A stretch of DNA of 29,693 bases from a virus (Duplodnaviria > Heunggongvirae > Uroviricota > Caudoviricetes): the IMG/VR virus record IMGVR_UViG_2778261251_000001; one strand, written 5' to 3'. The translations under genes were made by a program, and so were the position numbers. This document shows, in pieces, positions 266 through 15,189 of the stretch. The notes below the pieces were generated by a model. That model saw nothing but the letters and a program-made list of their open reading frames with translations, made no database searches and had not been told where the DNA came from. The stretch's first letter is position 1, and each line of letters starts with the position of its first letter.

Positions 266-398
266 TTTTTGGGACTCCTGGCTGATTAAGTATGTCGATA
301 AGGCGTTTCCATCCGTCACGTAATTTACGGGTGATTCGTTCAAGTAAAGATTCGGAAGGGCAGCCAGCAACAGGCCACCCTGCAATGGCATATTGCAT
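234..398 (-). CDS. cIII: CIII (FtsH/HflB inhibitor, lysogeny establishment), 54 aa
   Basis: Hand translation of minus strand from ATG at 398-396 gives [54 protein letters not shown], matching recalled lambda CIII; overlaps kil start in another frame as in lambda. Not in the ORF track because under 60 aa. Confidence 0.85.
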   Translation of the reverse strand: MQYAIAGWPVAGCPSESLLERITRKLRDGWKRLIDILNQPGVPKNGSNTYGYPD

Positions 399-470
399 GG
401 TGTGCTCCTTATTTATACATAACGAAAAACGCCTCGAGTGAAGCGTTATTGGTATGCGGTAAAGCCGCGC

Positions 471-2608: not shown

Positions 2609-2977
2609 TTAGTCAGCGAAGGTTAAGACGAGAATTACCTTAATGATGTCTGCTACAACAGACACGGCCACAGATAAACCAAAGACGATCCAAGCCATAG
2701 AGATGTCTTCACTACCATCGTATAGAGTTCCGTAATCACTGGTGTAAGGCGTAAATGTCGCGCCTTGATACAACAGGTATAAGCTTGATCCATAGAGGAT
2801 AAATGCAGATATCCCTTGTATTGCTATGACCACTAGAATCATGAAACGAGCTGATCTATGCGCCCAAGCCTGGCTTATTTTTTCTGATAGAGATTTCGCA
2901 ATAAAAGCATGCGCTAAGCCGTAAATTGTTGAGATTGCCAACATCCCAAAAAAGCTTGCTATAGCGGTTCCAACCAT
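2609..2977 (-). CDS. small integral membrane protein (3 predicted TM segments) co-transcribed downstream of cI; function unknown
   Basis: 122-aa ORF starting 19 nt after the cI stop with an AGGGGGA Shine-Dalgarno; three long hydrophobic stretches; occupies the rexA/rexB position of lambda. Confidence 0.6.
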   Translation of the reverse strand: MVGTAIASFFGMLAISTIYGLAHAFIAKSLSEKISQAWAHRSARFMILVVIAIQGISAFILYGSSLYLLYQGATFTPYTSDYGTLYDGSEDISMAWIVFGLSVAVSVVADIIKVILVLTFAD

Positions 2978-2996
2978 AAGCGTCCCCCTTGCGTGA

Positions 2997-3713
2997 TCAA
3001 ACCAGCCTTAGTTTTGTCTCAATTGCAACGCCTATAATCTTGCAGTTTCCATTGATTGGCACGAGAGGCCATGCAGGGTTAAGTCCCTTGAGGTATTTAT
3101 TTCCGCCGTCGATTATCAGCTTCTTGAATGTTGCTTCGTTAGAGTCAGAAAGTTTTGCTATGACCAAGCTGCCGTTGATCGCCTCCCTTCCGGTATCGAA
3201 AAGAACGAATGTTCCCTCTGGAATGCTTAACCCAACCGGTGCCGTCATTGAATCACCTTCCACTTTAAGCCAGAACGCATTACCTTGAATATGCGCGTCA
3301 GACTCAAGCCAAACATCTATGTCTTTAATGGTGTATGGTTCGCATGCTTCACACCACGAGCCAGCCTGGATACTGCTTAACACCGGATACCTCTTTCCTG
3401 CTCTGTATTCCCCTGCATACCTTACGTTGGCATCGCTCTTAAGGCTTTCTGCCTGTTCTGCAACCTTGGCAGCAATTGACTGGCTAAAATCAGCAATTGA
3501 GACTTGCAACAAACGTGCAAAACCAGATGCGACCTCAACGTTTAGCGCGTTTCTGCCATTAAGATAATGCCCTACCGCTCCTTGGGTGATACCCAGTTCA
3601 TCAGCGATTGAGTATTGGGTTATTCCCAATTCTTTCTTTTTTGACTCATACAAAGCCTTAAGCCGCTTAGCGTCTTCGAGCTGTTCTGTCGTCAGTGATT
3701 TTTTATTTTCCAT
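2997..3713 (-). CDS. cI: CI-type prophage repressor (HTH N-domain plus LexA/S24-like autocleavage C-domain)
   Basis: 238 aa; N-terminus KKSLTTEQLEDAKRLKALYESKKKELGITQ resembles lambda CI; an Ala-Gly in SIQAGSW, a GDSM serine motif and FKKL lysine motif fit the S24 self-cleaving fold; no Shine-Dalgarno upstream, so a leaderless pRM-type transcript is plausible. Confidence 0.9.
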   Translation of the reverse strand: MENKKSLTTEQLEDAKRLKALYESKKKELGITQYSIADELGITQGAVGHYLNGRNALNVEVASGFARLLQVSIADFSQSIAAKVAEQAESLKSDANVRYAGEYRAGKRYPVLSSIQAGSWCEACEPYTIKDIDVWLESDAHIQGNAFWLKVEGDSMTAPVGLSIPEGTFVLFDTGREAINGSLVIAKLSDSNEATFKKLIIDGGNKYLKGLNPAWPLVPINGNCKIIGVAIETKLRLV

Positions 3714-9203: not shown

Positions 9204-9372
9204 CCCATCCCAAACCCTTCAATACCAGAAAGAAAGCGTCGAGCGAGCTTTAACGTGCGCTAACTGCGGTCAGAAGCTGCATGTGCTTGAAGTTCATGTG
9301 TGTGAGCACTGCTGCGCAGAACTGATGAGCGATCCGAATAGCTCAATGTACGAGGAAGAAGACGATGAATGA
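9196..9372 (+). CDS. ninF: NinF
   Basis: [51 protein letters not shown] matches recalled lambda NinF. Confidence 0.8.
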   Translation: MLSPSQTLQYQKESVERALTCANCGQKLHVLEVHVCEHCCAELMSDPNSSMYEEEDDE

Positions 9373-11815: not shown

Positions 11816-11890
11816 GGGTCAGTCGTATAAAGGTCATTACGGAAGGCTGTTAACCTTCTTATCGTGGTTCGAGTCCACGCTGTCCCGCCA
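11816..11890 (+). tRNA. tRNA-like sequence, anticodon GUU (Asn), possibly slightly degenerate
   Basis: Hand-folded cloverleaf: acceptor GGGUCAG/CUGUCCC (one U-U mismatch), anticodon stem GAAGG/CCUUC with loop CUGUUAA, T-arm CGUGG-UUCGAGU-CCACG, discriminator G then CCA; D-stem has one mismatch. Confidence 0.45.
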
Positions 11891-11895
11891 AATAT

Positions 11896-11971
11896 GCTGG
11901 TTTAGCTCCAATGGTAGAGCGGTCGCCTTGTAAGCGAATGGGTAGCGGTTCAAGTCCGTTAACCAGCACCA
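11896..11971 (+). tRNA. tRNA-like sequence, anticodon UGU (Thr)
   Basis: Hand-folded: acceptor GCUGGUU/AACCAGC (7/7), D-stem GCUC/GAGC, anticodon loop CUUGUAA, T-loop UUCAAGU, discriminator A then CCA, 76 nt; one mismatch at the base of the anticodon stem. Confidence 0.55.
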
Positions 11972-14349: not shown

Positions 14350-14556
14350 CGGCAGTACCGCGAAACAACCCAAGCCAGTAAGTGGGGAAATAACTGAAAG
14401 ATGAACCTCCAGCCTTATGGCAAAAAAGATTCTTTGTGGTGGCGGACTGATGGAAAGACATCGGATAGAATAAAACAGTGGCTAGGGTAGCTCCCGAAAA
14501 GCGGAATCGTCACCGCCAGCCACTGAATCTATGACGAACAACTAGACGAGGTTGAT

Positions 14557-14799
14557 ATGAGTGAAATTGATAAAATAATAAATGGTACATGTAACTTTCA
14601 ATCAATGCCGCCAGGTAGTTATGTAAAACAATGTAGTGAAATAGTTAATGGTCAGCTTGTAATGTCAAATGCAGGACGTGGAGTTTCTACGGATGAAAAA
14701 AAATCAATAAATGAAGCCCTATTAAGCATCAATGTTTTTGACTTGTTTCGCCCATCTTGGGTTATTTTGCAAAATAGTAGTCAATTCCCACATTATTGA
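14557..14799 (+). CDS. hypothetical 80-aa protein encoded in an AT-rich segment
   Basis: GAGG Shine-Dalgarno 5 nt upstream; base composition visibly more AT-rich than flanking phage DNA; followed by its own terminator; no family recognised. Confidence 0.45.
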   Translation: MSEIDKIINGTCNFQSMPPGSYVKQCSEIVNGQLVMSNAGRGVSTDEKKSINEALLSINVFDLFRPSWVILQNSSQFPHY

Positions 14800-14817
14800 T
14801 AAATTAATTAATAAATT

Positions 14818-14839
14818 GGTCGCTCAGGCGGCCTTTTTT
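14818..14839 (+). terminator. Rho-independent terminator downstream of the AT-rich ORF
   Basis: GGTCGC-TCAG-GCGGCC stem (one G-U pair) followed by TTTTTT. Confidence 0.55.
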
Positions 14840-14946
14840 ATTGCCATCACAAAAGCCATTCCCTACAGAGTGGCTTTGATAATGGCTTATACCCTACACG
14901 GGATAACTTAACTGATATCCCTTTTAACGGATAAACGGAGCCAACA

Positions 14947-15189
14947 ATGGCAGAGATTATTCCCATGACTGAAGAACAGAAATTCCAGTTAGAGATTTAC
15001 AAGCTGGTCATGAACCAGAACGCAGCCGCAGAAGAAGCATTTCAATTCATTGGCACTGACGAACTGAAGCTTGAGCTATTCAAAATTCACTTCCAGTCAG
15101 GTGGCGCTAATTCAGATATCACGACCCGAACTATCGAAGCGGTGCGTAAATCGAAGGAAGCGTTAGACCTGTTCACTACCGGAGCATAA
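14947..15189 (+). CDS. hypothetical 80-aa protein upstream of small terminase (P22 orf80 position)
   Basis: ACGGAG Shine-Dalgarno; acidic, helix-rich composition; position matches the small ORF preceding gene 3 in P22-like phages. Confidence 0.55.
   Translation: MAEIIPMTEEQKFQLEIYKLVMNQNAAAEEAFQFIGTDELKLELFKIHFQSGGANSDITTRTIEAVRKSKEALDLFTTGA

What the first reader, a model, noticed from the sequence alone, without database searches (positions are those of the whole stretch)
14557..14839. AT-rich ORF with its own terminator between rha and the terminase genes
The 80-aa ORF lies in a segment visibly more AT-rich than the surrounding phage DNA, has a Shine-Dalgarno and is followed directly by a hairpin plus T-tract. 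Compositional deviation together with an autonomous transcription unit suggests horizontally acquired cargo. No family was recognised, so the function is open: toxin, anti-defence factor or host-interaction protein.
Basis: partly seen in the sequence, partly recalled or inferred. Interest (0 to 1): 0.5.

Follow-up and report, generated by a model that had tools for sequence, protein, structure and literature searches.

The report
Swappable orphan-gene cassette in P22-like prophage
The AT-rich 80-codon ORF is a real but function-unknown accessory gene of a P22-like E. coli prophage, carried in a small exchangeable cassette made of a structured RNA leader (Rfam int-alpA), the gene and a terminator, and that leader looks built to control the gene's translation.

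Summary
An 80-aa ORF (14557-14799) with a GAGG Shine-Dalgarno lies in the most AT-rich stretch of the window (GC 0.30-0.33 against 0.48). A hairpin plus T6 follows at 14818-14839. The ORF codes for protein: dN/dS is 0.17-0.22 against 73-75%-identical homologues. The family is tiny (E. coli/Shigella P22-like prophages; 15 of 5,426 complete E. coli genomes) and matches no known family or fold.

Directly 5' of the ORF lies an Rfam int-alpA RNA motif (14475-14537, 42 bits, gathering 35.8), then a hairpin that holds the SD. Leader and terminator are shared adaptors: in other prophages they flank unrelated small ORFs such as DUF551. The whole unit, about 14476-14844, also occurs in a second slot between the antiterminator Q and the holin.

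Across 34 leader classes, the P3 loop is complementary to two downstream sites, one of them the SD-bearing loop. A -10-like box also sits just upstream of P1.

Most likely this is a moron-type cassette with a weak promoter of its own and translation gated by its leader. The protein's function stays open. The closest studied analogue is P22 pid, in the same slot.

The parts
14443..14448 (+). Weak -35-like hexamer, CGGACT (3 of 6 matches), 17 nt upstream of the -10-like box
   Evidence: Read from the sequence; listed as the best -35 for this -10 (see L090, the same sequence). It fell below the scan threshold. Inferred, not shown.
14466..14471 (+). -10-like box, TAGAAT, ending 3 nt before P1 of the leader. 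The predicted transcription start is about 14477-14478.
   Evidence: Comparative. A -10-like hexamer ends 0-5 nt before P1 in 39 of 66 unique int-alpA upstream regions. By class it is 29 of 58, against 3-13 of 58 in other 6-nt bins. Some examples are full consensus or extended -10 promoters (L043, L118, L004). No transcript data.
14475..14537 (+). int-alpA RNA motif (Rfam RF02996), a three-stem junction. P1 14476-14482 pairs with 14519-14525. P2 14485-14487 pairs with 14493-14495. P3 14501-14504 pairs with 14513-14516, with loop AAUCGUCA at 14505-14512. Site 1, UGACGA at 14532-14537, is complementary to the P3 loop.
   Evidence: cmscan gives 42 bits against a gathering score of 35.8, E 9e-8 to 1e-5. 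The MFE fold reproduces the junction. All three stems keep pairing through compensatory changes in the 79%-identical L005 copy (by eye). The P3 loop-site 1 duplex is -7.8 kcal/mol.
14539..14554 (+). Fourth hairpin (P4), CAACU-AGACGA-GGUUG. Its loop and 3' arm hold site 2 (GACGA, 14545-14549) and the Shine-Dalgarno (GAGG, 14548-14551). Site 2 is also complementary to the P3 loop.
   Evidence: MFE fold. The P3 loop-site 2 duplex is -7.1 kcal/mol. Across families, site 2 is closed by a stem of at least 4 bp in 18 of 19 loop classes, against 3 of 19 for site 1 and 32% of shuffles.
14557..14799 (+). ORFan gene of 80 aa (8.9 kDa, pI 5.6). Predicted to be three helices, with no signal peptide or membrane helix seen by inspection of the sequence (GRAVY -0.19).
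   Evidence: ORF. dN/dS is 0.17-0.22 with dS 0.64-0.96; 29 of 49 differences fall at third codon positions. Fisher p = 2.6e-7. Annotated WP_133158974.1, hypothetical protein. AF2 model has pLDDT 65.
14696..14703 (+). A8 homopolymer inside the ORF. This is where frameshifted 52-aa variants arise.
   Evidence: Sequence. P0005 ends ...DEKKINK, as an A9 run would give. L002 carries indels here and just upstream.
14818..14839 (+). Intrinsic-terminator-like hairpin GGTCGC-TCAG-GCGGCC plus T6. It is shared by different cargo ORFs.
   Evidence: The same 20-nt pattern follows DUF551 (L006, L014), a 57-aa ORF (L007), the BIS08P22 ORF (L012) and the copies in the Q-holin slot.
14476..14844 (+). Extent of the mobile unit (leader + ORF + terminator) shared with the copies that sit between Q and holin
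   Evidence: blastn gives 14495-14844 at 79.5% identity to L005-L010. The alignment carries the homology back to P1 and ends it at ...TTTTTTATTGC.
14555..14817 (+). Cargo-specific DNA, the only part not shared with prophages that carry another ORF in this slot. GC 0.304.
   Evidence: Homology with the DUF551-bearing loci stops at 14554 and resumes at 14818. In 33 further E. coli genomes the leader match ends at 14553/14554. GC.

Best explanation
Window ~14466-14840 is a self-contained, horizontally exchanged accessory-gene cassette (a 'moron') in the late operon of a P22-like E. coli prophage.

Shown:
1. The 80-codon ORF is a genuine protein-coding gene under purifying selection. Its family is tiny and limited to E. 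coli/Shigella P22-like prophages.
2. Only the ORF body is AT-rich foreign DNA.
3. It sits between two shared adaptor modules. One is an ~80-nt structured 5' leader, a member of Rfam int-alpA, followed by a hairpin that presents the Shine-Dalgarno. The other is an intrinsic terminator. In other prophages the same adaptors flank unrelated small ORFs.
4. The whole unit, leader through terminator, also occurs in a second late-operon slot between Q and holin.
5. Across many int-alpA leaders, the P3 loop co-varies with two downstream complementary sites, the second of which is the SD-bearing loop.

Inferred:
6. In the lysogen the unit is transcribed from a weak sigma-70 promoter (-10 TAGAAT at 14466-14471). 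This would give an mRNA of about 365 nt that starts at P1 and stops at the terminator. During lytic growth, Q-antiterminated late transcription reads through it as well.
7. Translation is gated by alternative pairing of the P3 loop. Pairing with site 1 leaves the SD free; pairing with the SD loop closes it.
8. The product is a small acidic helical protein, probably cytoplasmic. It most likely acts by binding a host or phage protein, as Pid from the same slot of P22 does to the host dgo regulon, and not as an enzyme.

The gene is dispensable for the phage.
For: Coding and family:
- dN/dS is 0.17-0.22, with a third-codon-position excess of differences. Fisher p = 2.6e-7.
- There are 6 clusters among 5.8 billion proteins. 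Only the family itself was found among 1.84 billion representatives. Members are from E. coli and Shigella.

Cargo status:
- The gene is in 15 of 5,426 complete genomes. This leader variant is in 48.
- Upstream neighbours and terminase types differ between carriers.
- Homology to DUF551-bearing loci stops at 14554 and resumes at 14818.
- Copies in the Q-holin slot share only about 14476-14844.
- GC is 0.304 for the cargo-specific DNA, against 0.52-0.56 for the adaptors.

Leader:
- Rfam int-alpA scores 42 bits against a gathering score of 35.8.
- The same hit precedes DUF551 and a BIS08P22 ORF.
- The MFE fold reproduces the junction plus P4.

Loop-site complementarity:
- At least one site is present in 86% of 65 unique leaders, against 10% in controls. 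Two sites are present in 58%, against 0.9%.
- Site 2 is closed by a stem in 18 of 19 loop classes.
- 12 of 14 loci tested are confirmed as int-alpA by Rfam.

Promoter: a -10-like box is enriched at a fixed distance before P1.

Terminator.

Analogue: P22 pid lies between orf25 and orf80 (which holds the DUF2560 position before gene 3 in P22). It has a weak promoter, a long 5'UTR and a terminator needed for mRNA stability (PMC8835761).
Against: - There are no transcript, protein or phenotype data for this gene.
- The -35 is poor (3 of 6 matches), and the consensus scan lists no promoter upstream of the ORF.
- The Q-holin copies lack the -10 box and lie directly behind a tR'-like terminator. There the gene can only be expressed by late read-through or from an unseen promoter.
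- The diverged leaders of L004 and L005 do not score against the Rfam model, and P1 looks degenerate in L004.
- The leader fold is only mildly better than shuffles (z = -1.9).
- Frameshifted copies exist, so selection is not universal.
- The protein-level mechanism rests on size, composition and a low-confidence model (pLDDT 65), plus analogy.
Confidence: 0.55

Rival explanations
1. The gene is a passenger of the late operon with no promoter of its own. It is made only during lytic growth, when Q-modified RNA polymerase from PLate reads through every terminator. The leader and the 3' hairpin serve as processing or stability elements for the cargo mRNA. The protein then acts in the lytic cycle, for example against a host defence or a competing phage.
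For: - The gene has the same orientation as the late genes.
- No consensus promoter lies upstream.
- In L005-L010 the cassette starts about 10 nt after a strong tR'-like terminator, downstream of a PLate-like promoter, and lacks the -10 box.
- Other cargos behind int-alpA leaders include HNH, GIY-YIG and Endo VII nucleases, Dam and a tail assembly chaperone, which are typical lytic-phase genes.
- In P22 pid, the terminator hairpin acts as an mRNA stabiliser (PMC8835761).
Against: - A -10-like box lies at a fixed distance before P1 in half of 58 independent leader classes, some with perfect or extended -10 promoters. This is hard to explain if the leaders are never 5' ends.
- A terminator directly after a late gene and ahead of the terminase genes makes most sense if non-antiterminated transcription has to be stopped.
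Confidence: 0.27
2. The ORF is a decaying or functionless hitch-hiker. The conserved, selected elements are the int-alpA RNA and the terminator, with the RNA itself acting as an sRNA. Whatever ORF lies between them is incidental.
For: - Rfam classes int-alpA as an sRNA gene.
- The same adaptors carry about ten unrelated ORFs.
- The ORF is rare, in 15 of 5,426 genomes.
- Truncated 52-aa variants form two clusters with 17 member sequences. L002 is frameshifted.
Against: - dN/dS is about 0.2 over 25-27% protein divergence, and the frame is intact in three lineages and two genomic slots.
- In 82 leaders, an ORF with an SD starts a regular 27-51 nt after P1 in most cases, and the SD itself is part of the co-varying structure. 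That marks a cis-acting 5' UTR, not a free-standing sRNA.
Confidence: 0.07
3. The product is a toxin or abortive-infection effector, held in check by its leader.
For: - Tight translational control and AT-rich DNA, which may be H-NS-silenced, are common for toxic cargo. This rests on general knowledge, not on a test here.
- Nuclease genes share the same type of leader.
Against: - The unit holds no partner (antitoxin) ORF.
- There is no hit in PADLOC, Pfam or NCBIfam.
- No membrane segment or nuclease motif is apparent.
- Only a minority of copies are inactivated.
Confidence: 0.06

Closest known systems
P22/BTP1 pid moron locus (Cenens et al. 2013; Wolput et al. 2022, PMC8835761)
   Same: - Same genomic slot in a P22-like phage: between the lysis/rha genes and orf80 (the gene at the DUF2560 position in P22), ahead of gene 3.
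- A small ORFan protein (86 aa against 80 aa).
- A weak promoter, a long 5' UTR and a Rho-independent terminator that shapes the transcript.
- pid is highly transcribed in BTP1 lysogens (PMC7067206).
   Different: - No sequence similarity (blastp).
- pid is on the opposite strand to the late operon; this gene runs in the same direction.
- P22 has no int-alpA leader: its homology with the window ends at 14467.
- Pid has a known target, the host dgo operon. This protein has none.
Rfam RF02996 int-alpA RNA motif (from the candidate structured RNA survey of Weinberg et al. 2017)
   Same: The leader at 14475-14537 scores above the gathering threshold over the full model length. It forms the three-stem junction with the conserved CUAG...CGAAAAG core.
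   Different: - The family is named for neighbouring integrase and alpA genes and is typed as an sRNA. Here it lies in a late operon, 20 nt before a cargo ORF.
- It is extended by an SD-presenting hairpin whose loop matches the P3 loop.
- I could not check whether the published motif already includes the loop-tail pseudoknot. The supplement is not held, and only one other paper in the library names the motif.
Classical lambdoid morons, such as lambda bor and lom and the HK97/HK022 morons (Juhala et al. 2000, as cited in PMC7067206)
   Same: A gene with deviant base composition, inserted between conserved genes of an operon, absent from relatives and followed by a terminator.
   Different: - The promoter is not demonstrated.
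- The flanks are reusable adaptors shared by many cargos, not private signals.
- The same unit occupies two different slots.
RBS-sequestering leaders of T4 free-standing and intron-encoded homing endonuclease genes (from memory: Gott et al. 1988; Edgell, Gibb and Belfort 2010; not checked here)
   Same: RNA structure at the ribosome binding site limits translation of mobile accessory genes. About a quarter of the ORFs behind int-alpA leaders are HNH, GIY-YIG or Endo VII nucleases.
   Different: - A different structure: a three-way junction plus loop-loop complementarity, not a simple hairpin.
- Different phages.
- ORF80 itself has no nuclease motif.
Integron gene cassettes
   Same: Promoter-less or weakly promoted single ORFs, bounded by conserved structured elements and exchanged as units.
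   Different: - No attC-like site and no integron integrase.
- Exchange here is most simply explained by homologous recombination within the shared leader and terminator (junctions at 14554 and 14818).
- The structured element is on the 5' side and overlaps the translation signals.

Membership tests
Moron (Hendrix/Juhala sense) | Present in some related phages and absent from others at the same position | tested here: met
   ORF80 is in 15 of 5,426 complete E. coli genomes. The same leader with other cargo is in 33 more. P22, Sf6 and Huey carry other genes in the slot.
Moron (Hendrix/Juhala sense) | Base composition differs from the flanking phage genes | tested here: met
   GC 0.304-0.329 against 0.48 for the window. 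GC3 is 0.20 against 0.49-0.57 in the neighbours. It is the lowest 283-bp window in 29.7 kb.
Moron (Hendrix/Juhala sense) | Own promoter | tested here: inconclusive
   The consensus scan finds none upstream. A -10-like TAGAAT sits at the position where int-alpA leaders are enriched for -10 boxes. The Q-holin copies lack it.
Moron (Hendrix/Juhala sense) | Own transcription terminator | tested here: met
   A 6-bp GC-rich hairpin plus T6 at 14818-14839. It is conserved with every copy and with other cargos. This is sequence-level evidence only.
Moron (Hendrix/Juhala sense) | Expressed from the repressed prophage | not testable with these tools
   No transcriptome is available for a lysogen that carries this cassette.
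Rfam RF02996 int-alpA | Covariance-model score at or above the curated gathering score | tested here: met
   42.0 bits against 35.8, matching model positions 1-71 of 71.
Rfam RF02996 int-alpA | Three-stem junction kept by compensatory changes | tested here: met
   Between the window and L005: P1 CAGUGGC/GCCACUG becomes UCAUGGC/GCCAUGG; P2 GGG/CCC becomes GAU/AUC; P3 GCGG/CCGC becomes GAGUU/AACUC (alignment, read by eye). MFE fold.
Rfam RF02996 int-alpA | Neighbourhood of integrase or alpA genes (the origin of the name) | tested here: not met
   Here the motif lies between rha and DUF2560/terminase in the late operon. Of 52 distinct downstream ORFs in viral contigs, none matched an integrase or AlpA Pfam family at E <= 0.001.
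Pid protein family (P22) | Sequence similarity to Pid | tested here: not met
   blastp of ORF80 against Pid and all small int-alpA cargos finds only its own orthologues.
Known anti-phage defence proteins (PADLOC-DB) | Match to a defence-system model | tested here: not met
   No family at E <= 1.
Type II toxin-antitoxin module | Two adjacent co-transcribed small genes | tested here: not met
   The conserved unit 14476-14844 holds a single conserved ORF. The overlapping 59-aa frame at 14732-14911 crosses the unit's border, so the other slot does not keep it.
Homing endonuclease cassette | HNH, GIY-YIG or LAGLIDADG nuclease domain | tested here: not met
   No Pfam, NCBIfam or PHROG hit for ORF80, although such nucleases are common behind the same type of leader.
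Anti-CRISPR / anti-defence proteins | Homology to a characterised inhibitor | tested here: inconclusive
   No dedicated anti-defence library was available. Pfam, PHROGs, PDB sequence search and BFVD fold search gave nothing. In phage Huey, genes in and just upstream of this slot (the Gp49/66-family gene in the slot itself) are labelled anti-CRISPR by an automated annotation, but they are unrelated to ORF80.

The most novel reading that the evidence does not exclude
int-alpA is not a free-standing sRNA. It is a portable promoter-proximal riboregulator that defines an unrecognised class of exchangeable phage gene cassettes: a -10 box, a three-way junction whose P3 loop toggles between a decoy site and the SD-bearing loop, one cargo ORF, and a terminator. 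Lambdoid and other phages use this adaptor to plug in, swap and safely express foreign accessory genes. The cargos include ORFans such as this one, DUF551, Dam and homing nucleases. ORF80 would then be a recently captured AT-rich cargo with a new host- or phage-directed activity.
Probability: 0.35. Interest if true: 0.7.

Novelty: new member of a known kind. Interest (0 to 1): 0.55.

Why it matters
The gene by itself is one more ORFan moron in a slot already known to hold the pid moron in P22. The packaging is what makes it useful.

- The case links an orphan Rfam motif (int-alpA, function unknown) to a concrete and testable role: a cis-acting translational control leader for mobile phage cargo genes.
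- It shows that leader and terminator act as recombination adaptors, which lets unrelated ORFs be exchanged at base-pair-precise junctions.
- That gives a simple sequence handle (leader + terminator) for harvesting accessory genes from lambdoid prophages.
- It also gives a small system of about 370 bp in which loop-SD pairing can be tested by compensatory mutagenesis.

Tried and rejected
Searches on the protein that found nothing:
- Pfam, PHROGs, PADLOC and NCBIfam.
- tblastn against 50,697 phage records.
- PDB sequence profile search.
- The exhaustive HMMER profile search returned only the family itself, plus six long multi-stretch proteins that I take to be compositional matches.
- The AF2 model is low-confidence (pLDDT 65). 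Foldseek against BFVD gave no match below E = 1. I ran no further search on such a model.

Sequence readings I rejected:
- The overlapping 59-aa frame at 14732-14911 runs across the terminator and the unit's border, so it cannot be conserved in the other slot.
- The promoter-like hits TTGATA-16-AATAAT (14552-14579, + strand) and TTGAAA-18-TATTTT (- strand) lie inside AT-rich coding DNA, and the scan finds no more sites than in shuffles.
- The first 27 nt of the ORF are perfectly conserved, but this is not significant (P about 0.07).

Literature leads that went nowhere:
- The BTP1 st313-td/bstA lead was the wrong slot: that gene lies downstream of cI.
- The epsilon34 genome paper discusses only the 'ant moron'.
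- The Weinberg 2017 main text does not mention int-alpA, and its supplement is not held.

Limits of the methods:
- The MAFFT alignment of diverse leaders (A3) misaligns the 3' strand of P1 and the tails. I therefore did not run formal pair counts on it. I used own-tail against foreign-tail controls instead.
- Rfam does not detect the diverged leaders of L004, L005 and L007.

Full report
**What the window is.** The window matches a prophage in the E. coli ETEC1738 chromosome at 100% identity. The gene order is that of a P22-like lambdoid phage. The early and regulatory region runs from exo/bet/gam/kil/cIII through the repressor and cro/cII to replication, the nin genes and Q. The late region then runs tRNA-Asn and tRNA-Thr, holin, endolysin, Rz, rha, the ORF in question, DUF2560, gp3, the large terminase, the P22-type portal, scaffold and coat (Pfam).

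**Checking the observation.**
- The ORF is 14557-14799 (+), 80 aa. GAGG lies 5 nt before the ATG.
- The finding's segment has GC 0.329. The mean of 283-bp windows is 0.483 (sd 0.039), and the lowest such window in all 29.7 kb starts at 14534.
- GC3 is 0.198, against 0.49-0.57 in the neighbouring genes.
- The hairpin GGTCGC-TCAG-GCGGCC plus T6 at 14818-14839 is picked up by the terminator scan. It folds at -12 kcal/mol with its flanks.
- One correction: a DUF2560 gene (14947-15189) separates the ORF from the terminase genes.

**Is it a gene?** Yes.
- A search of 5.8 billion proteins gives six clusters. One holds near-identical proteins, two hold 79-aa homologues at 73-75% identity, one is a 71-aa variant with an altered N-terminus (P0003), and two are truncated 52-aa forms.
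- Against the diverged homologues, dS is 0.64-0.96 and dN is 0.14-0.16, so dN/dS is 0.17-0.22. Of 49 differences, 29 fall at third codon positions. Fisher p = 2.6e-7.
- An exhaustive profile search of 1.84 billion cluster representatives finds only the family itself, plus a few long repetitive proteins.
- Named members are all 'hypothetical protein' from E. coli or Shigella.
- Pfam, PHROGs, PADLOC, NCBIfam, PDB sequences and 50,697 phage genomes give nothing.
- AlphaFold2 on the four-sequence alignment predicts three helices at low confidence (pLDDT 65). Foldseek against viral models finds no match.
- The protein is 8.9 kDa with pI 5.6 and is not hydrophobic.
- Some copies are broken. An A8 run at 14696-14703 is A9 in the 52-aa cluster P0005, and strain SMN013SH2 carries indels there. 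The gene is therefore dispensable.

**It is cargo, and the unit is sharply bounded.**
- The ORF is in 15 of 5,426 complete E. coli genomes. Its carriers differ in the upstream neighbour (rha, DUF2829 or another ORF) and in terminase type.
- The key result came from the 73%-identical homologue P0004. In six metagenomic or assembled contigs it lies not here but between the antiterminator Q and the holin.
- DNA homology between the two locations covers only window ~14476-14844, at 79.5% identity. That span starts at the first stem of a leader structure and ends just past the T-tract of the terminator.
- Conversely, prophages with a different gene in the present slot (DUF551 in L006 and L014) match the window up to 14554 and again from 14818.
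- In 33 further E. coli genomes, the leader match ends at 14553/14554.
- So the cargo-specific DNA is 14555-14817, and it alone is AT-rich: GC 0.304, against 0.524 for the leader and 0.556 for the terminator.
- The same 20-nt terminator follows at least four other cargos.

**The leader.** Rfam finds an int-alpA RNA (RF02996) at 14475-14537: 42 bits against a gathering score of 35.8.
- It is a three-stem junction. The MFE fold reproduces it and adds a fourth hairpin, CAACU-AGACGA-GGUUG (14539-14554), which holds the Shine-Dalgarno.
- In the diverged Q-holin copy, all three stems are kept by compensatory changes, although that copy no longer scores against the Rfam model.
- The identical hit precedes DUF551 in L006 and L014, and a different ORF in Salmonella phage BIS08P22.

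**The wider survey of int-alpA leaders.** To see what the leader does, I scanned IMG/VR for its core, CTAG-N9-12-CGAAAAGCGG.
- Of the 120 loci returned, 81 have the P3 hairpin and P1 closure. Of 14 loci sampled, 12 are confirmed by Rfam above the gathering score.
- First regularity: an ORF with an SD starts 27-51 nt after P1 in most leaders. The 52 distinct ORFs are mostly unknowns. They include about a dozen HNH-type nucleases, Endo VII, GIY-YIG, T5orf172, Dam, ParB_N, Rha, DUF551 and tail assembly chaperones, and no integrase or AlpA.
- Second regularity: the P3 loop is complementary to the leader's own tail.
 - At least one perfect match of 5 nt or more occurs in 86% of 65 unique leaders. 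The figure is 10% when loops are paired with the tails of leaders that have unrelated loops.
 - Two such sites occur in 58%, against 0.9% in the control, across 34 different loop sequences.
 - Site 1 lies a few nt after P1. Site 2 overlaps the SD and is closed by a stem of at least 4 bp in 18 of 19 loop classes, against 3 of 19 for site 1 and 32% of shuffles.
 - In the window, the loop AAUCGUCA (14505-14512) faces UGACGA (14532-14537) and GACGA (14545-14549, within GACGAGG whose last four bases are the SD). The duplex energies are -7.8 and -7.1 kcal/mol.
 - Loop and sites change together between families, and A-to-G changes opposite U are tolerated. I therefore read this as RNA pairing.
 - The simplest model is a switch in which the P3 loop binds either the decoy site 1 or the SD loop. 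That is inference.
- Third regularity: a -10-like hexamer ends 0-5 nt before P1 in 39 of 66 unique upstream regions. By class it is 29 of 58, against 3-13 of 58 in other 6-nt bins.
 - Some are perfect or extended -10 promoters (L043, L118; L004 has TGATATAAT).
 - In the window the box is TAGAAT (14466-14471), with a poor -35. The consensus scan did not list it.

**How it most likely works.** Taken together, the unit has the anatomy of a moron: a weak promoter, a leader, one foreign ORF and a terminator, set co-directionally in the late operon.
- In a lysogen it would give a short mRNA, about 14477-14840. The terminator would protect the terminase genes from that transcription.
- After induction, Q-modified polymerase would read through it.
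- The counter-evidence is real. The Q-holin copies have no -10 box and start about 10 nt behind a strong tR'-like terminator, downstream of a PLate-like promoter. There the gene must depend on late read-through.
- I therefore give the 'passenger of the late operon' reading about a quarter of the weight.

**What the protein does cannot be read from sequence.** The best guide is position.
- P22 and BTP1 carry the pid moron in this same slot, between orf25 and orf80, on the other strand.
- pid has a weak promoter, a 174-nt 5' UTR that yields a second mRNA species, and a terminator needed for mRNA stability. Its small ORFan product derepresses the host dgo operon. It is among the most highly transcribed BTP1 genes in lysogens.
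- ORF80 is unrelated in sequence.
- I commit to the same logic, at modest confidence: a small binding protein that modulates a host or competing-phage target, and not an enzyme or a membrane protein.

**Comparison with what is known, and novelty.**
- As a gene, this is a new member of a known kind: an ORFan moron in a known moron slot of P22-like phages.
- It meets the int-alpA model score, but not the genomic neighbourhood that gave that family its name.
- It fails every test for Pid, defence systems, toxin-antitoxin pairs and homing nucleases.
- Less ordinary is the packaging. An orphan RNA motif typed as an sRNA behaves here, and in dozens of viral contigs, as a promoter-proximal 5' UTR whose loop matches the ribosome binding site. 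Together with a shared terminator, it serves as an adaptor between which unrelated ORFs are exchanged.
- About ten unrelated small ORFs share the TCGTCA-type leader. That leader often starts about 22 nt after Rz in other lambdoid contigs.
- I could not check whether the original description already drew the loop-tail pseudoknot. The library holds no functional study of the motif.

Noticed in passing
window 14852-14884: A strong hairpin, AAGCCAUUC...GAGUGGCUU (-13.3 kcal/mol), is followed at once by GATAAT. It lies between the cassette terminator and DUF2560. The stem co-varies in P22 (GAGGCCA...TGGCCTC) and in L020, L082 and L099 (CAGGCA...TGCCTG). In L020, L028, L082 and L099 the same hairpin plus GATAAT directly precedes an int-alpA leader. 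Its function is unknown; it may be part of another promoter or leader.
   Followed up: partly
window 14401-14490: A 29-codon mini-ORF (MNLQPYGKKDSLWWRTDGKTSDRIKQWLG) runs through the conserved non-coding stretch after rha. It crosses the -10-like box and stops inside P2 of the int-alpA leader. P22 has a 27-codon version with the same first 21 residues. Whether it is translated, or matters for the leader, was not examined.
   Followed up: no
L005 7760-7821 and L007 1207-1267 (Q-holin region of related P22-like contigs): A sub-threshold match to the type III hammerhead ribozyme (30 bits against a gathering score of 48.5, E 0.01-0.02). The CUGAUGA and GAAAC cores are present (sequence of the equivalent region of L006). 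The site lies between the PLate-like promoter and the tR'-like terminator.
   Followed up: no
L023 4576-4645 (-) and L023 8870-8937 / 9211-9278 (+): An unrelated viral contig has a type II hammerhead hit above gathering (49 bits). It also has two int-alpA leaders about 340 nt apart, next to a tRNA cluster. This suggests that int-alpA cassettes can occur in tandem.
   Followed up: no
L013 2836-3021 (E. coli EC01307): In this prophage an extra 61-aa ORF sits between ORF80 and the shared terminator, so the slot can hold two cargos in a row.
   Followed up: no
window 353-411 (-): Lambda cIII thermoregulator element (Rfam RF01804, 88.5 bits), at the start of the cIII homologue.
   Followed up: no
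window 11816-11968 (+): Two phage-borne tRNA genes, annotated tRNA-Asn and tRNA-Thr in the matching RefSeq record. They occupy the Q-holin slot, the same slot that holds the ORF79 cassette in L005-L010.
   Followed up: partly
L011 1924-3039 (Escherichia phage Huey): Two genes in or next to this slot are labelled 'anti-CRISPR protein' by the depositor's automated annotation. One is the Gp49/66-family gene in the slot (2659-3039). The other lies just upstream (1924-2424), where rha sits in the window. The label was not verified.
   Followed up: no
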